A stretch of 64,000 bases of DNA from Lama guanicoe (Eukaryota): NCBI GenBank assembly GCA_013239625.1, contig MU057354.1, positions 27,676,459-27,740,458 on the forward strand, in the 5' to 3' direction. Positions 2,307 to 64,000 of the stretch are shown one piece after another (position 1 is the stretch's first letter; each line of letters starts with the position of its first letter). The notes below the pieces were generated by a model. The model was not told the origin of the DNA. It worked only from the letters and a program-made list of their open reading frames with translations, and searched no databases. The translations under genes were made by a program, and so were the position numbers.

Positions 2307-2384
2307 CCTAGAGCGTTCCACCCTAGAGCGTTCCACCCTAGCGCGTTCCACCCTAGAGCGTTCCACCCTAGCGCGTTCCACCCT
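2307..2384. repeat. 15-bp minisatellite (CCTAG[A/C]GCGTTCCAC), about 5.2 copies
   Basis: Units start at 2307, 2322, 2337, 2352 and 2367. Confidence 0.95.
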
Positions 2385-4170: not shown

Positions 4171-6055
4171 AAAAAAAAAATAAGTTACAGGTGTACAACA
4201 TAGTGACTCACATTTTTAAAGGTTGTACTCCATTGAAAGTTATTATAAAATACTGGCTATATTCCCTGTGCTGTACAATGTATCCTTGTAGCTTATTTAT
4301 TTTATACATAATAGTTAACACCTCTTAATCTCTCACCCCATCTTGCCCCTCCCTTCCTTCCCTCTCCCCACTGGTAACCACTAGTTTGTCCTCTGTATCT
4401 GTGAGTCTTTCTTTTTTGTTACATTTACTACTNNNNNNNNNNNNNNNNNNNNNNNNNNNNNNNNNNNNNNNNNNNNNNNNNNNNNNNNNNNNNNNNNNNN
4501 NNNNNNNNNNNNNNNNNNNNNNNNNNNNNNNNNNNNNNNNNNNNNNNNNNNNNNNNNNNNNNNNNNNNNNNNNNNNNNNNNNNNNNNNNNNNNNNNNNNN
4601 NNNNNNNNNNNNNNNNNNNNNNNNNNNNNNNNNNNNNNNNNNNNNNNNNNNNNNNNNNNNNNNNNNNNNNNNNNNNNNNNNNNNNNNNNNNNNNNNNNNN
4701 ACTGCTATGAACATTGGGGTGCATGTATTTTTTCAAATTAGTGATTTTTTCCCAATATATACCCAGGAGTGGAATTACTGGGTCATGTGGTAGTTCCATT
4801 TTAGTTTTCTGAGAAACCTCCATACTGTTTTCCACAGTGGTTGCACCTGTTTATANNNNNNNNNNNNNNNNNNNNNNNNNNNNNNNNNNNNNNNNNNNNN
4901 NNNNNNNNNNNNNNNNNNNNNNNNNNNNNNNNNNNNNNNNNNNNNNNNNNNNNNNNNNNNNNNNNNNNNNNNNNNNNNNNNNNNNNNTTTTTTATGTGCA
5001 AAAGCTTTTAAGTTTAATTAGGTCCCATTAGTTTATTTTTGCTTTTATTTCCCTTGCTTTAGGGGACAGAGCCAAAAAATATTGCTGTGTTTTATGTCAA
5101 AGAGTGTTATGCCTGTGTTTTTTCCTAGGAGTTTTATGGTTCTGGTCTTACATTTAGGTCTTTAATCTATTCTGAGTTTTTGTATATGGTGTTAGAGAAT
5201 GTTCTAATTTCATTTTTTTTTCTTACATGTAGCTGTCTGGTTTTTCAGCTCTGCTTATAGAAGAAACTGTCTTTTCCCCATTGTATATTCTTTCCTCCTT
5301 TAGTATAGATTACACTTGATCTTAGCCAAAAGGCTGAGGAAGCTATCTTTTAGTATNNNNNNNNNNNNNNNNNNNNNNNNNNNNNNNNNNNNNNNNNNNN
5401 NNNNNNNNNNNNNNNNNNNNNNNNNNNNNNNNNNNNNNNNNNNNNNNNNNNNNNNNNNNNNNNNNNNNNNNNNNNNNNNNNNNNNGCACGTGATTCCTCC
5501 AGCTCTGTTCTTCTTTTTTCAAGATTGTTTTGGTGATTTGGGGTTGTTTGTGTTTACATACAAATTTTAAAATTATTCTACTTNNNNNNNNNNNNNNNNN
5601 NNNNNNNNNNNNNNNNNNNNNNNNNNNNNNNNNNNNNNNNNNNNNNNNNNNNNNNNNNNNNNNNNNNNNNNNNNNNNNNNNNNNNNNNNNNNNNNNNNNN
5701 NNNNNNNNNNNNNNNNNNNTTTAATTTCTCGCATCAGTGTCTTATAGTTTTTGGAGTGCAGGTCTTTTACNNNNNNNNNNNNNNNNNNNNNNNNNNNNNN
5801 NNNNNNNNNNNNNNNNNNNNNNNNNNNNNNNNNNNNNNNNNNNNNNNNNNNNNNNNNNNNNNNNNNNNNNNNNNNNNNNNNNNNNNNNNNNNNNNNNNNN
5901 NNNNNNNNNNNNNNNNNNNNNNNNNNNNNNNNNNNNNNNNNNTCTGGTGGCATCTTTAGGATTTTCTATGAATAGTATCATGTCATCTGCAAACAGTGAC
6001 AGTTTTACTTCTTTCCAATTTGGATCCCTTTTATTTATTTTTTTTTCTTGTCTTC
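4171..6055 (-). mobile_element. 5'-truncated, gapped LINE-1 with ORF2 remnants
   Basis: Minus-strand ORF2-like peptides MILFIENPKDATR, VKDLHSKNYKTLMREIK and MENSMEVSQKTKMELPHDPVIPLLGIY, plus an L1 3' UTR. Probable TSD tctgattccaatctt (4156-4170) / tctggttccattctt (6056-6070), 13/15 identical. Confidence 0.92.
5311..5346 (-). pseudogene. 3'-truncated U2 snRNA retrocopy (about nt 1-35)
   Basis: Reverse complement ATAGCTTCCTCAGCCTTTTGGCTAAGATCAAGTGTA versus the U2 5' end ATCGCTTCTCGGCCTTTTGGCTAAGATCAAGTGTA. Confidence 0.9.
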
Positions 6056-7470: not shown

Positions 7471-10279
7471 TTAGACAGCTAACCAGTCTCAGACTTGTTT
7501 CTAGTAAACTCCTCTCAGACCTCCAGGCTGAGTTAGGAGCACTTCCTCTGGGTTCCCTCAGCCCTCTGTGCTGACTTCCAGCTTGGTAGTTCATATGTGG
7601 TATTTAAATCTGTGTTTTTCTCCTGTCTCCCTCTGGAGAACATACACGGACGTACTCATTTTTGTTCCCTCAGCATCCAGTACAGAGCCTGGCACCATAA
7701 GCGTTGTACACCTTGTTGTTGGACCAAATGCTTCTGGTTTGCTTCATTCTCATTGCATAACTCATGTTCCCGTAGCAGTGGGCTCTCTCAGAATCTTCTG
7801 CTCAAGGTGTCACTCTGCCCTTTGTTCAGGCGCAGTGTCATCACTCTTTATTGCCAAGGTCACTAGCAACGTCCTTATTCTGACAGCACCTGAAATTCTC
7901 CTCTGAGAAGCCGTCCATCCGTAACTAATCACAAGAAGCAAAGGGACCATTTTCCTAGTTCCATACTCGCTAACAGGAAACTTCTGTGTTTCTGCTTTAT
8001 TCATAACCTCTGCTCTGTAGGCAGTGTCAATATTTAATTTCTTGTCTGTCCTATTTATATATTCATTCTCGGTTCTCTCCTTAGCTATCTGTGTTCCATA
8101 TTGAGTAGTGTCACCTTAGGTTGTGAGCTGCTTCTCTGAGCCCTGGTAGCTTTGTTGATTAGAGTAAGGAGGTCAGAGCCATAAAAGAAGCGTTTTGCTT
8201 GGCCTCATCTGTTTTAACATTATCTGTCTAACCTAAGCCAGCTACTCTGCAAGTTATTAGCCACATGGGGACCGAGCAAGAGAGAGATACTAGTCTCTCA
8301 CCTATGAGGCGACAACCTCAAAGCACATATCCTGTTGGAAGTGAGATGAAAGAGTCAGTAGAGTGGTTACGAGAAAGGACTTTGGAAGATGGAGGCCTGA
8401 TTTCAAGTCTTAGCTTCAATAAAATACTAGCTGCTTTACCCAAAGCAGATACTTCAATGAATTTTTTCCCTTGGCTTTAAAGTTGGCCAAGGGTTCTTAA
8501 TGTTCAAAATGAGAATATTTAGCATATATTTAATAGTCATACACAGTTTCAAAAGAAAGAGCGTGCCCAGGGCCCTACCTAGTGCCATGTGTAGAGAAGT
8601 ACAGAAATGCTTTATAAATTCTTACTGGTGGTGACAAAACTAATGTTAGAAAAAAGTGGACTAATTATTTATATTCTGTTCTTTCTACTCATTCTGGCAT
8701 GCTGGTAGAGAATGGCCCTTGTGAGTTTTTAATTATGTAGAAAGTTATTAGGATAACAAGGGAATATTCCAACTAGTTGGGCCACAAATTGTGGGAACTA
8801 TGGTACCAAACTCATTCATAGGCACATAGGCAATGTATCAAGAAACTCAAACCACTGTCTTATTACCTTTCTCTTTTTAAATAATGCCACGTGGCTTGAA
8901 TTGCACTTTGTAGTAAGCTGTATTGATTTCCACTGCTCTGGTTGATGGCACAGAGTCAAGCAACCATTCCAGGGATCCAAAACCTCTCTTCCCCAAATCT
9001 CTTACTTCTGGACCTTACCACTAGATGACAGTTCCTTTCTGTGTTTTGGCTAATGAGTGAGGGTAACACCTTGAGTTAATTGTGCAGTTTTCTCCTTCTA
9101 GGCATCCTAGTAAGATCGAGAGGGAATTTATTTATAGCTTCTGAACACCCTAACGCAATTATTGGGATGCATGCAGTTAAATGCTTGTGCCAAACAAATG
9201 GAAAAGAAGTTTCAGTTGAAGCATTTAACTGTCACAACTTAATTATCTAGTATTTGGTATGTTTTCTAAAGTTCTTGAAAATCAAGCTGTCACTTCTTTA
9301 TAAAGATTCAAAATTAACACATTAATAGGAATTTGACCTTCCTTGAAAACCATGTTGACAAAAATGATTATAAGACTACATTCTTCATTAAGACTACAAT
9401 TAATACATTTTTGAACTGCTATCAGTCTTTTTGTTTGTAGAAATGAATAATTTCTCTTAAAAGTTAAATCTCACTCAAGCAAAGTTAATCCTTACACAGT
9501 GCTGTCTGTCCACACTGTATAGGATAGATGGGAAGGGCAGGAAGACACTGAAGTTATTTTGACACAAAAATTGAGATGGTGATTCTTGCATGTTATCCAG
9601 TTCCTTCAAACGATTTTTTCTTTTTGATGACCTTAGTTATACCTGTCATGGTGCTAGGGCCGTGGAGAGATAGAAAAGAGGAATATATACTGAAGACAGA
9701 GGGTAGAGGGTGGGGTCATTTGGGTGAAGCTTATCTACTGAGATGATGAAACCAAAGCACCATGGGACTCCTAATAATTTGTGGGTCTTTGAGAATATTC
9801 AAGGGCATTTTGAGACCTTTAAGCCAAGGTAATGCCTGGGTCGCACCACATATAGAAAATTTACCTATGATATGTAAGGCTTAGAGTTGTCATTTGGATG
9901 AAATTCTAGAGCAAGACTCAAACATTGCAATTTAACCTAAGAGTGAAAATGTTAGTGGGAGCAGTAGTGGCAATTTGGTCATGCATTTGGTGTTGCCTTT
10001 TTAGTATTTCCATTCTCGTATAAAATCACATGCTTGAATTAAATCTTGGTCTGGGTGTTAAGCCTCAAAATGCTTTATAAGAAACTTCCACAACAATCTA
10101 GTTAGCGCCATTGTCTGTGTTTTGCACCAGAATGTGTTGCTTGCTTCTCACGCTGCCATGCTTTCTTTTGTGTGTGTGATTCTCATGCTTCTAAGGGTCT
10201 GAGCAGATAGTCTTCAGTTGCTTACTGTGTAAAATGGTGATGATAAGATCTACCTAATAGAAGTATTATATGGATTAAA

Positions 10280-17880: not shown

Positions 17881-18005
17881 TTTTTGTGGTGGGGGAGGTA
17901 ATTAGATTTACTTATGTATTTACTTTTGATGGAGGTACTGGGAATCAAACCTAGGACTTCATGCATGTTAGGCATGCACTCTACCACTGAACTATACCCT
18001 CCCCC
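17881..18005 (-). mobile_element. tRNA-derived SINE, Vic-1-like (camelid)
   Basis: Reverse complement ggggagggtatagttcagtggtagagtgcatgcctaacatgcatgaagtcctaggtttgattcccagtacctcc has A and B boxes and a ...taattacctccccc tail. Flanked by the repeat atagctttttt at 17874 and 18009. Confidence 0.85.
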
Positions 18006-18013
18006 ACCATAGC

Positions 18014-18600
18014 TTTTTTTAAATTGAAGTATAGTTGGTTACAATATGCCAGTTTCTGGTTGTACAGCACAGTGTCCTAGTCTTGCATATACATACATAT
18101 ATTTGTTTTCATATTCTTTTTCATTAAAGGTTATTACAAGATATTGAATGTAGTTCCCTGTTCTATACAGAAGAAACTTGTTTTTTTTAATCTGTTTTTA
18201 TATATAGTAGCTAACATTTGCAAATCTCAAATTCCCAAATATATCTCTTCCTACCCCCTTTCCCTGGTAACCATAAGACTGTTTACTATGTCTGTGAGTC
18301 TATTTCTGTTTTGTAGATGAGTTCATAGTGTCCTTTTNNNNNNNNNNNNNNNNNNNNNNNNNNNNNNNNNNNNNNNNNNNNNNNNNNNNNNNNNNNNNNN
18401 NNNNNNNNNNNNNNNNNNNNNNNNNNNNNNNNNNNNNNNNNNNNNNNNNNNNNNNNNNNNNNNNNNNNNNNNNNNNNNNNNNNNNNNNNNNNNNNNNNNN
18501 NNNNNNNNNNNNNNNNNNNNNNNNNNNNNNNNNNNNNNNNNNNNNNNNNNNNNNNNNNNNNNNNNNNNNNNNNNNNNNNNNNNNNNNNNNNNNNNNNNNN
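18014..18600 (-). mobile_element. LINE-1 3' end, running into an assembly gap
   Basis: ttttaaattgaagtatagttggtttacaat...ggtaaccataagactgtttactatgtctgtgagtc. Confidence 0.88.
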
Positions 18601-18601
18601 N

Positions 18602-19659: not shown

Positions 19660-21259
19660 ACAAAAGCTTTCAGGCACTTGTTTGTTTGTTATATTCCTTT
19701 GTCGGTGTATGGAGTGGTCTGTGGAGCCTCTTGAAAGAAGATGTGCTGCTTAGTGTTTGACAGTTAAATCACGGTGCTGCCTGTCAAAGATGAGAGCTGG
19801 GAGGAAGTGAAGGGCAGCTGCAAAGCTCTTTGCTCATTGCCTGCTTTCACAAAGGTGCTGGCTTTGGAGAGGAAGTCGCTGAATCTGGAGCAAGAGCTTT
19901 CACTCAGCGTCTCTAAAATGACAAAGGAAAACTGTTGAGAGTTGGAACCACCACCCTAGTCTTTTTCATCCTGTTTCCCCACCCCTCTGCTGCCATCCGT
20001 CCATGTGGGAACAGATCGTGTGGTTGTGTTGTTTTCTCTTGAAAGTCTGAGGGTGCCGGAGTTGTTCTGGTCAATCGTGGGCTTGGAAACAAAACAGGTT
20101 GTGGGAAAAACAAAGTTAGCCTTTTCAGGGTGGACGGTACCACCTTTACCTTTCTGGCATGTGCTCTGAGGAGAGTGTGTACTGGGAATGTGGTCCTCCC
20201 CAACAAAAGCAGGGGGTTGTGTGCAGGGACCAGCGTGGTCCTCTGACCCGGGGGGCCTTGTGCCTCTTCGGTTCTGATGGGCTTGTGTGGATAGTGAGGC
20301 TTGGGTTATCTGACATGTCTAGGATTGCCTAAAACAATCCTAAAAAATACAACTTACAAAGTAGAAAAAAATTACAAATTTCTTTAAAATAGAAAAAAAT
20401 TTCCTTAACTAGGGGTAAGGAAAAAATAAATTTTGATGTACAAATACAAAATATGGAGAAACTTTAAAATTCAATTTTAATTGCTAAAAACTATATTATA
20501 TAATTATTATATATTACATATTATATAGATTATGTAATTATTATAAAAGATTGTTTCACTCCCCTACACTCCCAGTCAACGTTTTGGTACAAATTTTATA
20601 TGTGTGTATGTGTACAGATACATGTATATGCATGTATATACGTGTATGTTCATATATGCGGGCATGTATACATAAACACATGCGTATCTGTACATATATA
20701 TATGCTTTGCTATTGCTTTTGTAGAAACAGGGAATTTTGCTGCATATACTTTTCCTGCCTAAAGTTTTCATCCAACTATGTATCATGAGCTATTTTCCTG
20801 CCTGTAACTAATGATCATACACTCTTTTAAAATCCGATAAGGATAGAATGGTTAGATTCAACCCGTCCTTCAAGGCTTGACATTTAGGTTGTGTTTTGGT
20901 TTCTGTTTTTTTTTTTAAACAATCCTGGGTTTACATTCTCATGCACCTATATAGAAACGGCTTAAAGAAAGCATCCAGTGTATCAGAAAGTGCCTGTTAA
21001 ATGTTAGTCATCTGAATTTTCTTTTTTTGAGTCGGTAATCATCCTGAGAAAAACTCTCTGACTGAGAATGTAAAGTGCTTTATGAATGTTGAAATCCTAA
21101 TGTTGCCATGTTAGCTGTAGAACTGAGGCGTGGTTCCGCAAAGGAAGCTTCAGGAAGACATGATTCGGTTTGGGATTACACTGGTGGGTGACAAGGAGAT
21201 GACCAAGTTCTTTTACTGCATGGAGACTTCATTGTGATGGCCTTAGAGCATGTGATGCA

Positions 21260-26790: not shown

Positions 26791-27370
26791 TTGTTTTCCA
26801 CTTACCTTTGTTCCGAGTAGCTTCCCTGGAGATTCAGGTCTTGCTTGGCTCCTTGTGCATTTCTGCCCTACCAGGCTGCCCTTCTGTACCCCATGCAGGG
26901 GTGGGCAGGCTTTCCTGGAATCCTTCTCTGACCAGCTGTGCATATATCCAACCAATAACCAGAAGGAGCTGACAAGGTCTGTGAGTTATGCTGGCCTTGG
27001 GGGCCGTTCTATTGAGGCATCCACAAAGGCTGTGCTGGAGCCTTGCTTGCTCCTCCAGCCAGTGCCTGGAGAACAGTTCCCTGTTCAGCCACCACGGGCC
27101 CTCGAAGTTTCCGCAGGAAGGTGGGGCTGCCCAGGCCTTGGCAGACGTTTGCTCTTTGCTCTTGCACAAGTACCTCCTTTTTGGAGCCAGGAGCCTGTTA
27201 TGATGCAAGGGGAAGTTTGGGATGGTCTGTCACCCTGGGGAGGGTTAGTACCTCTTCTTGTTATCTTGGTTGGGATGTACAGGATGCAGGCATCCCTGTT
27301 GGTTTTGAAGGTTAGGTTCCCCGCCTCTGTCTTAGGCTGGCCACTGCTGGGGACCTTATAAGTCACAAAC

Positions 27371-31250: not shown

Positions 31251-34200
31251 GGGCCATTCTGGGACCTCAGTGAGAGAGTCCTGTGAAAAGATGGTTGAAT
31301 CATCTCTCCGGTAGATGGTTGGAAATGGGCCCCAAGAAGATCCAACTGTCCTTGCTTTTATTCATTGCTCACTACTCAACCCTCGGAACTGTAATTCCAT
31401 CTTGAATGGAGCCATCCCCAACTACAAGGTGGGTTGTAGTTCTGTGGGTACAAGGTTGGTTTCCTGGACCAGCAATAACCATTTTAGTATAAAAATTGGT
31501 GTCTGATTTATCACATGTATTGTTGTTGGGAAAGTACACAGATGTAATGCAGTCAAGGCACAGCCCTGCCCTCAGGACCTCACATCACCCTGGGTTGTAG
31601 CGTTAGGCGGTACAGTGCTGAACTTGAACTTCCTAACTTGTGGCCAAGTGCTCTTTTTGTGTTTCCTCTGCCTCTCTGCCTTTTAGCCTCTGGCTGGTTT
31701 AATTAGAGTGAAATAGTCCTCAAGAGTCTGTGCATCTCTCAGTAAACTTTGACTATCATATTCTTAAACCTCAAAGCCCTGAAATAGGATTTGGACTGTG
31801 GTGGCCTCACCAATAAGTGAGTCTCAGCTTGAAGCCATCATCCTATCTCTTCTGTGTTTCACAGCATCCAGTGATCCTAGTTAGCCCATAAAGGTAAGTT
31901 AGCTTCCTGTGACTCTCCTCTGGTGAGGGCAGCTCTGTACCCTGAGAGGATGTGCCTGGAGGAGGCTCAGGTGTCTCAGGAGGCACAAATTTCTGGTAAA
32001 CGTGATCAGCACATAGCATGCTCTGAGATCAGAGCTTTATTCCACAAGATGTTGCAACCTGGTGCCCACAAAGCACATGAATAAAAACACCACCTTCTGT
32101 GCCTCCAAGCTCCATTTTCATAGTCGCTGTCTGCTTCACTAATTAAGAGACTTGCACAACTCCCTCTTGACCTAAATGTGTAAAATGTTGCATGTTGTTC
32201 TGGCTCTCCTAATAGCTTTTGTTTGGCACATTCTGAATTGATAAGATCAAATGTAATTAGCTCCAGATATCCAAGTCTCCATTAGGAATAATTTTAAGGA
32301 GCAGTACATCTCAAAATCTACTCTCAAGTCTCCAGCTTCTTTGCATCTTTCAAAAATGTTTAAATCTCTAAATTGGCCTTGATTCTGGAAAGATAAGTGG
32401 GGAGAAGTTTGAGGGAGTAATTGTACTGAGTCAGGTACTTGTGCTCAAGTCTGGGACATTAGGAAAAAAAAACCCTTTAAACAGACCTGTCATAGCTGTG
32501 TTTTAAGATCAATACTCATGCCTGCCATATGGAGCCAGACCTCTGGCTCTCACGCCTGCAATGGTTTGGCCCCGTGTAATCTTCCCTCGATATGTGATGA
32601 TAATCACCAAGTGGATGCCTATTGCAGATGGCCTCCCATGCTTCGGCACACAGCCCCTCCGGTGTGGCTGCTGTGCCGCAGAGTGATGTGGGCATATAAG
32701 TGGGTGGAAATTTTCTCATGTGTCCCAATAATAACAATGCAGAATCCTATTGCTGTTCAGTTTCCCCTGGAACTTCAGCCCACTCAGCANNNNNNNNNNN
32801 NNNNNNNNNNNNNNNNNNNNNNNNNNNNNNNNNNNNNNNNNNNNNNNNNNNNNNNNNNNNNNNNNNNNNNNNNNNNNNNNNNNNNNNNNNNNNNNNNNNN
32901 NNNNNNNNNNNNNNNNNNNNNNNNNNNNNNNNNNNNNNNNNNNNNNNNNNNNNNNNNNNNNNNNNNNNNNNNNNNNNNNNNNNNNNNNNNNNNNNNNNNN
33001 NNNNNNNNNNNNNNNNNNNNNNNNNNNNNNNNNNNNTCAGGAATTAATTCTAGAGATGCTTCTTAATGTCTACTAAGGAACTAGAATAGGTAAAAGATGC
33101 CAATTTTTTTGGATACGATGATAATTCTGTTCCATCGTTGTTACCTAAATGGTTGTCATGTGATCTGAACTTTAGAAAGGGACACTAACCCTAGATGATA
33201 GATCTTATCAGGGCTCTACATTCTGCTCTTCACTGATGTCAGTAGATTTTGAGTTTTCCCAATGAATTCTTAGTAACAGAGTGAACTTGTGTCTCAGTGG
33301 ATGGATAACTTTCCGAACACAAGAAAGTATATTGTCTGAGAAACTGGGGATTTAAATGGCCCTTCAATCTTCTTTTTTCTAGATGTCCCATATGTTGCTT
33401 AGTCCTTGAGCACAAAGATCTACACACTACTTTTTAGGGTCAAAACTTAAATTTGAAGTGTCTTTATAATAATCTTTTAAAAATAGTTTATTGTTTTAGA
33501 TTGCAAAAATGATTTTTTTTGGAAGATATTGGATTAATGGAAAACAGTTCTGTTAAAATTTCAGTCTCACTATGTGGGCAGTTCTGTGAGTTGAAAAATA
33601 AAGAAGTTATAAACAAATGAAAATTACATTTCACTCCAAATGTTCTCCAAATGTATTTGTTTCGGAGAGTTGAAGAAATTTGGACATCTTTCTCCTAAGA
33701 CATTTTGTCTGTCTGAAGTAAACTTGTCTCAGTTTCTCTCATTTATAAAAATATTCTCTTTTTACTTAAAAGATAAATTGCCACATTGATTTAACAACCA
33801 CTCCACAAAATCATACAAGTGTATGTTCTCTGATATTTCTATGTGACATGCTTTTATTGGAGCACATGTTCCTAATTTTATCATATAGTTAAGTTCAGTA
33901 ACGTTCAAGTTACAATAAATGATATCTGTGCTAATTGATTAATTTTTTTGGCAAATGATGTATAATTTGTACAAGGCCCATATATTGCTCAATTGAATTC
34001 AGCAACATAAACATGCCATTAAAAAGCCAACAATCCAAAAATGTTGACTGTAGCCTCATAAACCATCAGTACCATCTCATCACTTTCACTTCTTTTTCTA
34101 TTCTCTTCCCCACCTGGGAAGATGCAGGGAAATGGAGAGGCTGTGGACAGTGGAGAACAGCTGAAGTGTTCATGGAAACTCAGACAAGTGAAGAATGTCT

Positions 34201-34737
34201 CAGAGGTTCCCTTTGTGGACCTATTGGATCATCTCAAGCATTTTCATCATTAAATGCTGCTTCTGAGCTAACCATCTGAGTATTAAGGAAAAGTAGAGCA
34301 AGCTCACTGATAATTCTTGGCTACTCGAAATGTGTGAGTGTGTGCGTATGCCTATGTGTGTGTGTTCGTGTTCATGCTAAAGGGGGATTTACATTTTAAA
34401 CACATAAAGCAGGCAAGTTAGGTTACTTAATTCTCAGAAGAAGATGGACACATTTCAACACACATATATTACTCTATTAAAGATAGCACCCCACGTATAC
34501 CCCCAAATGCTGTGTTCTCAAGNNNNNNNNNNNNNNNNNNNNNNNNNNNNNNNNNNNNNNNNNNNNNNNNNNNNNNNNNNNNNNNNNNNNNNNNNNNNNN
34601 NNNNNNNNNNNNNNNNNNNNNNNNNNNNNNNNNNNNNNNNNNNNNNNNNNNNNNNNNNNNNNNNNNNNNNNNNNNNNTAACAAAATATCCTTGTTAGCTA
34701 TTACTAGGGAGAAAATTTAAGTAGAACTACCCATTTT

Positions 34738-37579: not shown

Positions 37580-38160
37580 CATTTTTTTGAGATGAAATTC
37601 AAATGCATTTCAAATGATAAAGTTCATTTCCATAAAATTCACACCCTCTTAAAGTGTACAATTCTGTGGTTTCTGGTATGTTCAGAAAGTTGCACAAGCA
37701 TCGTCACCATCGAATTCCAAAATAATTTCATTACCTCAAAAAGCAAACCCATACCCATTTGCAGTCACTCCTTATTTCTCCCTCTCCCCAGTCCCTGGGA
37801 AGNNNNNNNNNNNNNNNNNNNNNNNNNNNNNNNNNNNNNNNNNNNNNNNNNNNNNNNNNNNNNNNNNNNNNNNNNNNNNNNNNNNNNNNNNNNNNNNNNN
37901 NNNNNNNNNNNNNNNNNNNNNNNNNNNNNNNNNNNNNNNNNNNNNNNNNNNNNNNNNNNNNNNNNNNNNNNNNNNNNNNNNNNNNNNNNNNNNNNNNNNN
38001 NNNNNNNNNNNNNNNNNNNNNNNNNNNNNTTTAGGCTCTTTCCACTTTTGGGCTATTATGAATAACGTTATGAACATTCATGCTCACATTTTTGTGGGAA
38101 TGTATATTTTCAATTCTCTTGGATATATGCCTAGAAGTGAAATTGCTGGGTTATGTTTGT
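37580..38160 (-). mobile_element. L1MB-like 3' region (gapped)
   Basis: aaattcacaccctcttaaagtgtacaattctgtgg...; minus-strand MFITLFIIAQKWKEPK. Confidence 0.85.
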
Positions 38161-39070: not shown

Positions 39071-39829
39071 CTACAAAAATTATTACTAACAAAAATATTT
39101 TAATCTCCAAAAAGCCAGAGTTATTTTGGAAAACATAAGGTCTTCCTACCCCCATACCCATTTTTTATTGCATCTTTGGAGATTATATGGAATCTCTTTA
39201 TATTGTCTTCAACCTGGAATCTGTGAACATTTTTGTATTAAGTGCATTAATATTAGCATATGAAATAGTATCTCAGTGATGGTAAAAATAGTTAAGAAAA
39301 AATTATAAGAGAAAAGTGGTAGGTGGTGAGATTTAGCATGATCATTAAAAAAACATTTTCTAGTATTTTCAAAATACTCTACTAAATGCATGAATTACTT
39401 ATTTTTTCTTTGAATCTCTAAAAAATAATAGAAGATTTTTTATCTAATAAAACTATTTTATAAGCCAATAAAGGTAAAATCAATACAATTTACTTGCCCA
39501 ACAGTTGAAATGACTAGAAGTACACAAAGTCTTTACAGTTATTGTCTTCATCTTTTTATATAGTTTCCCAACTTTATGTTATAAGCTTCACATTGCTTTA
39601 TAATGGAAAAATATAGCTTATTCAAAAATACTTAGTTTCATTAATGAATGGCAGTATTAAGTGCAAATGTTTCTGCCTATGAAAGATAGATGAACCTTTT
39701 TTTCCCTAAGCCCAGATCTTACCTAAATCATACCCTGTGTTTTTAATGGTATTGACCCACTTGAGGTGTATCTTTTCTTTCCAGAAGTTTTCTTTTATCA
39801 ACATGTCGTAACACAGAAGAGTCCAACAT

Positions 39830-41000
39830 TTATTCCAGCATCAGTATGTATTGAGTGGCTACCCTACACTAGCTGCTGAGAGTACAGGGGGTAAGTGAGG
39901 CATAGTCTCTGTTCTTATGTAGTTGAAAATTTAACATTTGAAAACTGTTGAAAATGCTATTGAGGGCTTGGTGGGTGGAATACACAGTAGACATATCCAG
40001 CCTGGATGGGAACAAGCGGAACAAGAAAGGCTGTCAGAGGAAATACAGTATCAGAGTTAGACAGTAGAGGGGTGACCAGTTGTCCCATGGACTTGAAATA
40101 GCCTATTCAAAGGTCTGGAGATGAGCTATGTTTGGGGAACCAGAAATAGATAAATACACTGGTAACAAAGAGTTTGATGCTAGGGAGTGATGAGTGATAG
40201 AGGCTGGAATGGGTAGCTGGGTCATGAAAGGCCTTATACACCAAGTTAAGGAATTCAAGTTTTGTCCTATGGGTAATGGGAAGCCGTTAGAGGGTAAATT
40301 AGTTTCCTAGAGTTACTGTGACAAATTACCACACACTTGATGGCTGGAAAAAACAAATTTATTCTGTCACAGTTTTGGATGCTAGAAGTCCAAAATCAAG
40401 GTGGCAGGCAGGGTTGGTTCCTCTGGAATCTCCGAGGGAGTATCTGTTCCACGGCTCTCTCCCAGCCCCTGGTGGTGCTTGGCAACCCTTGGCATTCCTC
40501 AGCTGGTGGCTTCATAACTCCAGTCTCTGCCCCTGTCTTCATATGGTTTTTTTTCTCGCTGTATCTTTTTCTTTTCAGTGTCTTTTAGGGACACTTATTC
40601 ATTGAATTAAGGGCCACTCTAATCCAGGATAATTTTCTCTCAAGACCCTACCTTAATTACATTGCAAAGACCTTTATTTTTAACAAGGTCACATTCTGAG
40701 ATTCAGGATGGAGGTCTTTTTGGAGGGCCACAATTCAACCCACTGCAGAGGGTTTTAGGAGGGCAGCTGAACAAATCAGACTTACGTTTCAGAAGGATTG
40801 CTCTGGCTACTGTGTGGAGAAGAGGTTTGAGGATAAGGCTGGGCCCCTGGAGATCAGTAGGAAGCTGAGTAAAGGATGCTAGAGGCTTTGGAATTAAGAA
40901 AGTGGAGGTGAACATAGGATACTCTGCAGATAGTTGGTTTGTGAAGGTGAAAAGAGAGGGCTATGGTTGAAGAGAGCATATGGTGGTGAGGAGGGGCTTT
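39830..41000 (-). mobile_element. LINE-2 interrupted by an MLT1 LTR
   Basis: The L2 text gggtaatgggaagccgttagaggg|ttttagga...aggattgctctggctactgtgtggag is continuous once the LTR is removed. Confidence 0.7.
40295..40747 (-). mobile_element. MLT1C-like solo LTR
   Basis: attagtttcctagagttactgtgacaaattaccacacac...gggccacaattcaacccactgca; perfect TSD GAGGG at 40290-40294 and 40748-40752. Confidence 0.9.
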
Positions 41001-41455: not shown

Positions 41456-41917
41456 CTCATGCCAGTAAACACGGCTACCTGTCCGGCTTCTGAAGGGAGA
41501 CGGAATAACCGACGTGTGTATACTTTTGTTCCATGATATGTGTTGGCTTTGATAAGCAGGCGCTATTATCATTTTGCAGATTACAAAGCTATTATCTTGC
41601 CTGTATTTTTTGTTTTGTTTGTTCTTTCACTCGCTTGCTACTAGATGGATTCAGTGAGGCAGTACCATTTATTTTCTTTATCTTTTCACGGGATTGGGGC
41701 TGGTTTGAGTCATCCTTTCTCTGTTTGTCTGGATGATAGGAAGAGGTGACTATTATCCCTTCGTATTAGTAATCCACATATTGAACCTGCCCAAGGACTA
41801 AAGCTGCTCTTAGGAGATTCATTTTCATAAGCATTTGCATAGACCCAACTGCCTTGAATAACTCTTACTGAGACCCGCTCTGAGACTGATTCCTTTATAC
41901 AACTTGATTTCTGAATT

Positions 41918-42524
41918 TCTTTCTTTCTTTTTTTGTTTTATTGAAGTATAGTCAATTTACAATGTTGTATTAATTTCTGGTGTATAGCATAGTGATTCAT
42001 TTATACATACATTATATTCATATTTCTTTTCATATTATTTTTCATTATAGGCCATTACAAGGGAATGGATATAGTTCCTTGTGCTATGCATTGGGACCTT
42101 ACTGTTTATCTATTTGATATACAGTAGTTAGTATCTACAAATCCTGAACTCCCAATTTATCCCTTCCCACCCCCTTTCCCCCTAGTTACCATAAATTTGT
42201 TTTCTATATCTGTAAGTTTCTGTTTTGTAAATAAGTTCATTTGTGTCTTTGTTTTGAGATGCCACATATAAGTAATATCATATGGTATTTATCTTTCTCT
42301 TTCTTACTTACTTCACTTAGTATGATGATCTCCAGGTCCATCCATGTTGCTTCACGTGGCATTATTTTATTCATTTTTATGGCTGGGGAGTATTCCATTG
42401 TATAGGCAGTTAGGTTGTTTCCATGTCTTGGCTAGTGTGTATAGTGCTGCTGTGAACATTGGGGTGCATGTATCTTTTTGAATTAGAGTTTCCTCTGGAT
42501 ATATGCCCAGTAGTAGGATTGCTG
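41918..42524 (-). mobile_element. LINE-1 3' end
   Basis: T-rich tail, 3' UTR and ORF2 end; possible TSD gatttctgaatt / gatttcttaact. Confidence 0.9.
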
Positions 42525-43359: not shown

Positions 43360-43539
43360 TCCCTCCTGAAGCCATCAGCTTCTTGTCTGCAGTCGGGGTC
43401 CTTATTGTCCTTCTGGTTGTCCTCTTCCTCTTCATCAATAAGAAGCTGTGTTTGGAAACCCCAGGAGGCCTTTCATGCCTGGAGCAACGAGGGAAAAGAA
43501 AGCACTCTAAAGACAAGACCCGGATTCCTGAAGGGCTGG
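43360..43539 (+). CDS. SYT16: Internal coding exon (180 bp, phase 1/1) encoding the N-terminal transmembrane anchor of a SYT14/SYT16-subfamily synaptotagmin, most likely SYT16
   Basis: Polypyrimidine acceptor ttttttcctttgtgttcttttgccag|TC and donor CTGG|gtaagc. The frame is open: (x)PPEAISFLSAVGVLIVLLVVLFLFINKKLCLETPGGLSCLEQRGKRKHSKDKTRIPEGL. It is about 24/40 identical to the recalled human SYT14 segment SPEAVGFLSAVGVFIILMLLLFLYINKKFCFENVGGFPDL. That is too divergent for a mammalian SYT14 orthologue and fits its paralogue SYT16. The exon has no in-frame ATG, so the start codon must lie in an upstream exon. Confidence 0.85.
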
Positions 43540-54855: not shown

Positions 54856-55409
54856 TGCTGTTCAACAGGTGTCAATGGACATTATACATGAGCATTAATT
54901 ACCTGGGACCTGATTAGAGAAGAAAAACCTTAGGGCCTTCTCCCAGCCTCTTAATGGGGGGAAAAAAGCAGCATTGTAAGGTAAATTGTCCCCTGAAATA
55001 TTCTGATGATGATGATGATGCTGATGACGATCTCGTTTAGCCAGTTCACTTTTATTGTTTTAATTTAATAGAAAATATAGAAGTAAGCTTTACCCTATCT
55101 TCCTGTCAAAGCCCTTATAAATGTCAAGTTATGATGTCTGAATTAATATAATTTAACTATATTCTCATTCCAGTGGAGAATACTGGATATTTTTTCTTGA
55201 CATGTAAAAGATTGCATATTGTTATGAACATAGGTACTTACACAGATTTTAATTTGGAAAAAGGTATTCATTCAGGTTTTAATTGAAAATTTAGCTCTTA
55301 AAATATTAAATCTTTAAAATGGTCAATACAAAACACTGTGAAAATGTGCAAAATGCCTTAAAATGTTAAATGAGAGAAGTAGGATATAATATTGTATGTG
55401 TGTGTTCAG

Positions 55410-57199: not shown

Positions 57200-57585
57200 A
57201 CAGCCGAGGTGGAGTAGAAACAGGATAAGAACAGTCTTTGGAGTCAGATAAACCTGAATTTGAACCCTACACTGGCCACTTATTAGGAAAATACTTTTAC
57301 GTTTTTGATTTCTAGTGTCTTCACTGTCTTACTGGCGTTTTGTGAAGATGTGGAATAGCGGATAAAGCAAGAATTTGGAATTCAGCAAAGGAGAATTGAA
57401 ATACCAGTTCCACTCTTTATCATAGGTATGAATCTTGGAGCAAGTCACTTACTCTTTCTGAGCCTCAGTTTTTTCAGCTGCAAAATAGGAAGGCTAAAAT
57501 TTTTCGCCAAGAGTTTTTATTCATGTATGTTGTCAAAAAGTATTGCGTACTGTCAACTGTTTGGCAAATATTAGTTATAATGATA
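57200..57585 (+). mobile_element. Two adjacent MIR SINEs
   Basis: tttggagtcagataaacctgaatttgaaccc...; caagtcacttactctttctgagcctcagttttttcagctgcaaaatagg. Confidence 0.7.
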
Positions 57586-62107: not shown

Positions 62108-62477
62108 GCATTTCTCAAATGTTGGTGAATGTCACAGTCACCCTGGGAACCTGACAAAAATACGAAGGTCCAGATGCTATTCCTTCAACCAGCCTGTGTT
62201 TTTTGTTTTGTTTTGTTTTTTTAATTTTTAAATTGAAGTATAGTTGATTTTCAATGTTGTGTTAGTTCCTGGTGTACAGCATAGTGATTCAGCTATACAT
62301 ATATATACAGATACGTACATATATATATTCCTTTTCCTATTATTTTTCATTATAGGCTATTACAAGATACTGAATATAGTTCCCTGTGCTGTATAGTAGG
62401 ACCTTGCTGTTTATCTCCTCTGTGTTCTTTATTCGTTCACCAGGTGATTCTGACACAGCAAAGTTTGAGAACAACTG
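62108..62477. mobile_element. MER5-like hAT MITE interrupted by an L1 tail
   Basis: ttctcaaa...caccctgggaacct... and caggtgattctgacacagcaaagtttgagaacaactg. Confidence 0.75.
62201..62417 (-). mobile_element. Short 5'-truncated L1 3' end
   Basis: T-rich tail then aaattgaagtatagttgatt...tagtaggaccttgctgtttatc; TSD ctgtgttttt (62194) / ctgtgttctt (62420). Confidence 0.88.
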
Positions 62478-63944
62478 GCTTAGATAATCAGAGATGCAAG
62501 CCTGGAAAGAGGGATTGAACTAAGGGCTGGAGATGTATATTTGGGAATTTTTTTAAAAAGTGTTGAGACTTATGGATGGGGTCAACTCTCCCAACTGATG
62601 AGTGTATAGGAGGAAAAGGAGAAACTATAGGATAATGAATGATTGCATATATGTAGTTGATGAGAAGACATGGAAGAGTCTTAAAGACAGACACATGAAT
62701 TATTCAGCATAAGGAAAGTGTAGGGAGCTTAGCTTCCCTTTAACTGGAATGTGGGCTCCATGGGAACAGAGACCTCAGGGTTACCTTATACCTGGCATTG
62801 TGCCCAGCACTTAATAGGCCCTTAATCAATATTTGTTTATTGAATGAATCAATGCACCGATGAATGGCTGTCATGAAATCTAAAGAGAAATGTTTAAGAG
62901 GATGTAGGCAATCATGTCAAATGGAGGAGTCTGAGGTCAGAAGGGGTGAAATTTACAGAATTGCTGATAGATTTGGTCAGAAGGAAGCTATATTACTATA
63001 AAAGATGGTGTAATTAAGTGCAAGCAGTGAATTTAGGCTCTGCTGTCATTTATAACATTGATCCAGGGCTTTAGATGAGCAGTGTAAAGGCAGTAAGATG
63101 TGTATGTACATACATAATACACACACATATGCTTCTGTGTACATGGGTATGTGTATGTGTTTGTATGCATGTATATCTGTGAAAGTATAGATATTTATCC
63201 TGAGTCTTCATTGTGTCCTGCTGCTCTGTTGAGTTCTTGTAGCTGCCTCCTTCCAGCGGTAAATCTTGTGGGAAGAAGTATTTCTCAGCAGTCTCGCAGG
63301 TTGTGAAGGGCCATCTTTGGGAAATTGGAACACAGACAAAAGCAACTTCCGAATGCTTGGGTCATGTGTCTGATACGCTGCATAACCCACTTGCCACTTT
63401 CAGTCTTTCAGAGGTTGATTGTTCCCCAAGAATAGGTTTAATTTCTAGAAGATGCATACAAAGTCCTGCTTTAAGATTTGTTCAAAGATTTTTAATTCCA
63501 GGCACACCTTTCCTTTGAAAGGATAAATCTTTGTGTCACAAAGCAGAGATGCTTATTAGCCTGCTCTCTAGGATCTGCAGATTCATAGATGAAGCATCCA
63601 ACCTTTGGTGTATTTTGAAATGTCATGTCTAACTGCCTCTTAATGAAGATTCATTTATCCTTTTCCCACTGTTAAGGATGGTCTAAGGTGATAGACTTCT
63701 CTTGGTCCGCATGAATAGAGCCTGTTACTGCTAATGGAAGTTTTGCATGTGTCTTCAGAGGTCAATAGGCATTGAAATAATCTACTTCTGGACTTTCACA
63801 GTCATTTTTATTTAGCTGCCATAAAGTTTTCAATGATGATCCCTTTCTGTCCCCAAATACTGTGCAATACTGATTGTAAGAATTTGGTGATGGGCCAGAG
63901 GTTGTAACTTTAACAGGTGTAAGTATTTCTTTCCTCTATTTCAG

Positions 63945-64000
63945 CTGAGAAGTTTTGAGAGTGAACTATTCACAGCCATTAAGAGACCTCCAATTTAATG
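63945..64000 (+). other. SYT16: Probable start of the next SYT16 exon (the exon carrying the ATG of the TM-less isoform), cut off by the window end
   Basis: Acceptor tatttctttcctctatttcag|CTGAGAAG with a TTAAC branch-point candidate at 63910-63914. The sequence resembles my recollection of the human SYT16 5' leader, and the ~20 kb spacing from the TM exon is plausible. Confidence 0.55.

What the first reader, a model, noticed from the sequence alone, without database searches (positions are those of the whole stretch)
63945..63958. Splicing the TM exon to the next exon gives an immediate stop: possible TM micropeptide/uORF switch
Seen: joining donor 43539 to acceptor 63945 reads CTG G|CT GAG AAG TTT TGA, i.e. 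L-A-E-K-F-stop. Inference: transcripts with both exons would encode a single-pass micropeptide of roughly 65-70 aa as a uORF ahead of the soluble SYT16 start codon, which lies beyond the window. One cassette choice could then toggle between anchored SYT16 and micropeptide plus soluble SYT16 or NMD. The micropeptide retains the TM and cysteine region through which synaptotagmins are known to oligomerise, so it could act as a modulator; that part is speculative.
Basis: partly seen in the sequence, partly recalled or inferred. Interest (0 to 1): 0.75.

Follow-up and report, generated by a model that had tools for sequence, protein, structure and literature searches.

The report
SYT16 anchor exon meets early stop
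In this mammal's synaptotagmin-16 gene the membrane-anchor exon either splices in frame to make the known anchored protein or runs into a stop a few codons later; the short membrane peptide this would give is most likely a by-product of known alternative splicing, not a purpose-built regulator.

Summary
The arithmetic is right: exon 43360-43539 joined to 63945 reads L-A-E-K-F-stop. The stop itself is unsurprising: 887 of 4411 AG sites in the window give one within five codons, and all three frames close within 54 nt. RNA contigs of close relatives showed the exon spliced in 3 of 4 runs, but to 63945 in 0 of 4. Upstream, 2 of the 3 spliced runs carry an exon that closes the TM frame. Other TM-only records have unrelated tails of 2-42 aa, so nothing beyond the anchored isoform looks conserved. 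Anchored and TM-less Syt16 are published (Craxton 2010); C2-less Syt7 variants are a precedent. No paper on a SYT16 uORF turned up. The scan noted alternative Syt16 5' exons in a sea urchin earlier. Verdict: plausible uORF/poison by-product; functional micropeptide about 10%.

The parts
43360..43539 (+). SYT16 transmembrane exon, 180 nt, phase 1-1; one hydrophobic helix (Kyte-Doolittle 19-mer 3.25), two Cys, basic linker
   Evidence: covered edge to edge by spliced contigs in 3 of 4 runs; 85% identical to whale and bat SYT16
63945..64000 (+). 5' end of the exon that likely carries the downstream start of TM-less SYT16 (runs off the window); all three frames close within 54 nt
   Evidence: bat models end in the same AEKF; a sheep model places the soluble-start segment 3' of 62515; no RNA laid on it
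63956..63958 (+). TGA that ends the TM frame if 43539 is joined directly to 63945 (the finding)
54869..54980 (+).
   Evidence: loose ends in runs X8 and X9 match 54871-54897 exactly
39785..39890 (+). Upstream cassette exon U1 (106 nt); TAA at 39809-39811 closes the TM frame and a phase-1 start exon is shifted out of frame
   Evidence: loose ends in runs X8 and X12 match 39860-39889; 5' edge inferred from acceptor rank 35 of 4412 and contig length 30+106+180+29=345
41580..41745 (+). Upstream exon U2 (5' edge uncertain); in-frame ATG at 41733 in weak context, overlapped by an out-of-frame ORF from 41645
   Evidence: loose end in run X9 matches 41714-41743 with 1 mismatch

Best explanation
The stop at 63956 is likely an unselected by-product: the TM exon is a true coding exon of membrane-anchored SYT16, and whenever splicing carries it into a non-coding exon instead of the in-frame V-N-S-F exon, its frame ends within a few codons. 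Shown: the TM exon is spliced; it joins the V-N-S-F exon in frame (anchored form) or the 54869 exon (stop after 7 codons); upstream exons vary. Inferred: 63945 is the untranslated leader of the exon with the downstream start for TM-less SYT16; transcripts that include it, directly or through 54869, turn the TM frame into a 68-71 codon upstream ORF if an in-frame start exon is present, which would lower soluble SYT16 output or expose the RNA to NMD (general knowledge, recalled). With exon U1 the TM frame has no start at all. The peptide, if made, would be incidental.
For: Stop frequency by chance 20% within five codons, 91% within 48; three stops in 18 codons of the TM frame and all frames closed. 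RNA: anchored join in X9, 54869 join in X8 and X9; in X9 the two out-paths have depth 3.0 and 3.1 against 6.76 for the exon. 62 of 93 relatives go TM to V-N-S and 9 more skip on to the next in-frame exon (recounted by eye). Of 27 short records, 15 read into the intron, 2 diverge inside the exon, 10 have spliced-type tails of 2-42 aa that do not align except the bat pair (sorted by eye). Different lineages use different extra exons that map inside this window. Craxton 2010 lists TM and TM-less Syt16, the latter from an 'alternative downstream start'.
Against: The AEKF tail is identical in two horseshoe-bat models and this genome. TM-only models with the natural start recur in fishes (P0096, P0098, P0108). 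Only 4 contig runs of unknown tissue were laid; contigs drop rare variants and give no junction counts; the X12 contig ends one letter past the donor with a letter that is not G, which leaves 63945 open. The runs are from close relatives, not shown to be this species. The start exon and the soluble start lie outside the window, so the uORF geometry is not shown.
Confidence: 0.55

Rival explanations
1. In this lineage the direct 43539-63945 junction is hardly made: 63945 is reached through the 54869 exon or from a promoter of its own, so the TGA at 63956 is never read and the finding describes a transcript that does not exist here.
For: 0 of 4 runs show it; in X8 (depth 22.2) the contig passes into 54869 without a branch at the donor. 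2 of 3 spliced runs carry U1, which closes the TM frame.
Against: Acceptor 63945 scores far above 54869 (rank 18 against 296 of 4412); bat models use the direct join; contigs show presence, not absence. From memory, unverified (one search found nothing on it): the human reference transcript also joins a 180-nt '5' UTR' exon directly to the start-codon exon.
Confidence: 0.2
2. The arrangement is a selected regulatory switch: including a stop-bearing exon after the TM exon (63945 ancestrally, 54869 in this lineage) shuts off anchored SYT16 and throttles soluble SYT16 through a long uORF or NMD. The act of translation matters, not the peptide.
For: TM and TM-less forms coexist from frog to mouse; every spliced short record ends soon after the TM exon whatever its tail; the 54889 stop lies 89 nt upstream of the inferred 54981 donor, past the 50-55 nt rule (rule recalled).
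Against: Early stops are expected by chance; the exons used differ between lineages; no tissue-specific or UPF1 data.
Confidence: 0.15
3. The TM-only product is a functional micropeptide that inserts in membranes and modulates synaptotagmins through its helix and cysteines.
For: The helix and juxtamembrane region are intact and conserved; identical AEKF end in two bat models; C2-less Syt7 variants alter vesicle recycling and insulin secretion (PMC5987875 passages).
Against: Exon conservation is fully explained by the anchored isoform; tails are not conserved; Cys kept in 65 and 77 of 93, mouse lacks the second and ruminants the first; junction unseen in 4 runs; start codon absent with U1 and weak with U2.
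Confidence: 0.1

Closest known systems
Vertebrate Syt16 TM and TM-less isoforms (Craxton 2010, PMC2823689, additional files 3, 31, 32)
   Same: Same TM exon, same in-frame V-N-S exon, TM-less form from an alternative downstream start.
   Different: The passages and files I saw list coding variants only and say nothing of a uORF or TM-only peptide; human was listed without a TM form, whereas databases now hold primate TM forms (P0039, P0049).
Rhinolophus gene models mRhiFer1_016482 (69 aa) and 'synaptotagmin-14-like' of R. sinicus (103 aa)
   Same: TM exon followed by AEKF and stop: the very product proposed.
   Different: Predicted models with other, unrelated N-termini; no evidence of translation; accessions could not be listed.
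C2-less truncated splice variants of synaptotagmin-7 (Sugita 2001, Virmani 2003, Gauthier 2008, as reviewed in PMC5987875)
   Same: Synaptotagmin splice forms that keep the N-terminal part and lose the C2 domains.
   Different: Those start at 122 aa, were cloned and showed effects on over-expression; here 68-71 aa, untested, and a downstream ORF likely follows on the same RNA.
Upstream ORFs and poison cassette exons (AS-NMD); general class, recalled
   Same: Inclusion of an exon ends the upstream frame before further junctions.
   Different: The uORF here is made of a real coding exon of the same gene; the stop-bearing exon differs by lineage.

Membership tests
TM-anchored Syt14/16 synaptotagmin isoform | Single N-terminal TM exon homologous to Syt16 | tested here: met
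   84 longer relatives, nearly all named synaptotagmin-16, best 85%; matches additional file 31
TM-anchored Syt14/16 synaptotagmin isoform | TM exon spliced in frame to the V-N-S-F exon leading to C2 domains | tested here: met
   Run X9 loose end reads into that exon; it lies outside the window; bat isoform P0015 has a C2 hit
Translated uORF microprotein | Junction 43539>63945 present in transcripts | tested here: inconclusive
   0 of 4 contig runs; present in 2 bat gene models
Translated uORF microprotein | In-frame AUG upstream of the TM exon | tested here: inconclusive
   Conserved start exon not found in the window; U2 supplies a weak ATG at 41733; U1 closes the frame
Translated uORF microprotein | Stop lies upstream of the main start on the same RNA | tested here: inconclusive
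   Stop shown; the soluble start is beyond 64000 (no match)
Translated uORF microprotein | Conservation of the ORF as a unit (length, C-terminus) beyond what the main protein explains | tested here: not met
   10 spliced-type tails of 2-42 aa, alike only in the bat pair and this genome
Translated uORF microprotein | Ribosome footprints or peptide evidence | not testable with these tools
   No Ribo-seq or proteomics tool; no paper with SYT16 and Ribo-seq or uORF
Poison exon / AS-NMD | Premature stop more than 50-55 nt upstream of a later junction | tested here: inconclusive
   89 nt for the 54869 exon if donor 54981 is used (inferred); the 63945 exon's end is outside the window
Poison exon / AS-NMD | UPF1-dependent decay | not testable with these tools
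   needs knockdown data
Poison exon / AS-NMD | Strong nucleotide conservation of the exon and flanks | not testable with these tools
   no mammalian genomes held
Syt7-type functional C2-less variant | TM kept, C2 domains lost | tested here: met
   no Pfam family in the 59-aa exon peptide or the bat 69-aa model
Syt7-type functional C2-less variant | Protein detected and an effect on trafficking shown | not testable with these tools
   bench work

The most novel reading that the evidence does not exclude
SYT16, widely described as lacking a TM domain, is a bicistronic synaptotagmin: its own TM exon is translated as a 68-71 aa upstream membrane micropeptide ahead of soluble SYT16, one splice choice re-fuses the two, lineages have re-recruited different stop exons to keep this switch, and the peptide itself modulates anchored SYT14/16.
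Probability: 0.1. Interest if true: 0.62.

Novelty: new member of a known kind. Interest (0 to 1): 0.27.

Why it matters
If the uORF reading holds, it would explain why SYT16 is called TM-less in reviews (PMC9393329) although anchored forms are annotated across vertebrates, and would give a simple handle on the anchored-to-soluble ratio of a poorly understood synaptotagmin. A functional peptide would add a split-and-rejoin design to the family. As it stands it is an annotation-level point: anchored and soluble forms are known, and the early stop is what chance predicts.

Tried and rejected
No whole genome is held for this window, so the start exon, the soluble start and the V-N-S-F exon could not be located. 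Donor and acceptor are 20,405 nt apart, beyond the 20,000-base limit of the single read-laying run, so I laid the TM exon only; whether 54869 splices on to 63945 is untested. Absence of the direct junction in contigs is not proof of absence. Cluster members and accessions of the bat and primate records could not be listed. A pattern search for the conserved 13-nt start exon found none. A competing donor-like site at 63919 scores low (1.99) and was dropped. Eight database models that fuse the TM exon in frame to the soluble-start exon use eight-way inconsistent linkers and were treated as prediction artefacts, untested. Literature: SYT16+uORF 0 papers, SYT16+Ribo-seq 0, 'synaptotagmin 16'+lacks+transmembrane domain+isoform 0, recalled human transcript accessions 1 irrelevant paper, microprotein/uORF/exon-skipping 1 listing on nested ORFs, cysteine-cluster oligomer search seen as listing only. 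The library lacks most subscription journals, and supplementary ORF catalogues were not searched, so a SYT16 uORF may be listed there. That the 54869 exon sits at a repeat boundary is a resemblance from memory; no repeat library was available.

Full report
Observation. The window is part of a mammalian SYT16 gene: the peptide of 43362-43538 finds 84 longer relatives, nearly all named synaptotagmin-16, best 85% in whales and horseshoe bats. The TM exon is 43360-43539, 180 nt, phase 1 at both ends. Joined to 63945 it reads L-A-E-K-F and stops at 63956-63958, 68 aa with a 13-nt start exon. That much of the finding is exact. On a crude splice matrix of my own, 63945 ranks 18 of 4412 AGs.

Is the stop surprising? 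No. A stop within five codons of a phase-1 junction follows 887 of 4411 AGs and 42 of the 220 best; 91% stop within 48 codons. In the 56 nt of the exon inside the window all three frames close, and the TM frame has three stops in 18 codons. This is what a non-coding leader looks like.

RNA. Of 24 runs listed, 19 hold the stretch; I laid 4 contig runs from 4 studies, two on record as RNA and two guessed, from close relatives rather than the best DNA holder. The exon is spliced at both edges or at its 5' edge in X8, X9 and X12; X10 runs on into the intron. Behind the donor, X8 and X9 continue into a sequence that maps exactly to 54871-54897, an exon starting at 54869 with a strong donor at 54981; the TM frame ends there after G-V-N-G-H-Y-T. 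X9 also continues in frame into the V-N-S-F exon, which is outside the window: anchored SYT16. In X9 the two paths have depth 3.1 and 3.0 against 6.76 for the exon. X12 ends one letter past the donor; that letter is not G, so it is compatible with the V-N-S-F exon or with 63945. The direct junction appears in 0 of 4; contigs drop rare variants, so this is not absence. Upstream, X8 and X12 come from exon U1, 39785-39890, whose TAA at 39809 closes the TM frame and whose length shifts a phase-1 start exon out of frame at each of three candidate acceptors. X9 comes from exon U2 ending 41745, with an in-frame ATG at 41733 in weak context, overlapped by an out-of-frame ORF. The conserved start exon was not found in the window. 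So the locus is not a one-cassette toggle, and the only start shown here is a weak one.

Relatives. Among 93 records: 62 go from the TM exon to the V-N-S exon, 9 skip to the next in-frame exon, 2 have in-frame inserts, 8 are models fused to the soluble-start exon, 7 read into the intron, 3 have other tails with stops, and 2 end in AEKF (script classes corrected by eye for six rows). A search with the bat peptide raised the short records to 27: 15 read into the intron, 2 diverge within the exon, 10 have spliced-type tails of 2 to 42 aa that align only within the bat pair (sorted by eye). Three of these are fish models with the natural start, so TM-only transcripts may recur, but without a shared end. 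The two cysteines are kept in 65 and 77 of 93. Alternative N-termini and tails of other mammals' models map to at least seven other places in this window: long introns with lineage-specific cassettes. A sheep model puts the soluble-start segment 3' of 62515 and that segment has no match in the window, which fits, but does not prove, that 63945 opens the soluble-start exon.

Mechanism. Shown: spliced TM exon, in-frame anchored join, a stop-bearing join at 54869, variable upstream exons. Inferred: inclusion of 63945 (directly or via 54869) makes the TM frame a 68-71 codon uORF ahead of TM-less SYT16 when a start exon is in frame; by general knowledge (recalled) a uORF this long lowers re-initiation and can trigger NMD. 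I put 0.55 on an unselected by-product, 0.2 on the direct junction being unused here, 0.15 on a selected uORF/NMD switch, 0.1 on a functional peptide.

What is known. Craxton 2010 (PMC2823689; passages, additional files 31 and 32 part 1, and rows and part 21 of additional file 3, cells cut at 400 characters) lists vertebrate Syt16 with and without TM, the latter by an 'alternative downstream start'; human only without. A review still calls SYT16 TM-less (PMC9393329, passages). C2-less Syt7 variants with effects on recycling and secretion are reviewed in PMC5987875 (passages). PMC1976326 and PMC3338438 (passages) added nothing. From memory and unverified, the human reference transcript joins a 180-nt leader exon directly to the start-codon exon, which would be this junction. 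Searches for SYT16 with uORF or Ribo-seq found 0 papers; subscription journals and ORF catalogues in supplements were not seen. The scan's own notes hold nothing near this place or like this sequence and one sea-urchin note on alternative Syt16 5' exons, whose source I saw.

Verdict. Observation partly confirmed; interpretation partly supported. A likely uORF/poison by-product of known SYT16 splicing, apparently not spelled out in the papers I could search: new member of a known kind, interest 0.27.

Noticed in passing
window 40224-40293 and 21108-21183 (+): Two more ATG-initiated open stretches that end at a phase-1 GT donor; their orthologues are the first coding exons of ruminant and seal SYT16 models. 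They could supply other in-frame starts for the TM exon; not seen in the 4 runs.
   Followed up: partly
window 8595-8651, 27274-27310, 32615-32720 (+): Segments matching alternative N-termini of felid, sheep, Pteronotus and gundi SYT16 models; the 32615 one has a stop in the frame read from 32615.
   Followed up: partly
window 57312-57383 and 62438-62515 (+): Segments matching exons placed after the TM exon in an assembly-derived record (P0033) and a sheep model (P0032): further lineage-specific cassettes between the TM exon and 63945.
   Followed up: partly
window 17930-18001 (-): tRNA-Val(AAC)-like sequence, 50.1 bits in Rfam, also called by ARAGORN; gene or pseudogene not decided.
   Followed up: no
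window 2307-2384: 15-nt tandem repeat, 5.2 copies, 95% matches.
   Followed up: no
window 41905-42111 and 62197-62416: Two copies of a dispersed repeat, 79-84% alike; they look like L1 3' ends (label recalled).
   Followed up: no
window 4433-5942, 18338-18601, 32790-33036, 34523-34677, 37803-38029: Nine runs of N, 1730 bases in all; a small exon could hide in them.
   Followed up: no
window 41736: Run X9 differs from the window at one letter just after the ATG at 41733, which changes the +4 start context.
   Followed up: no
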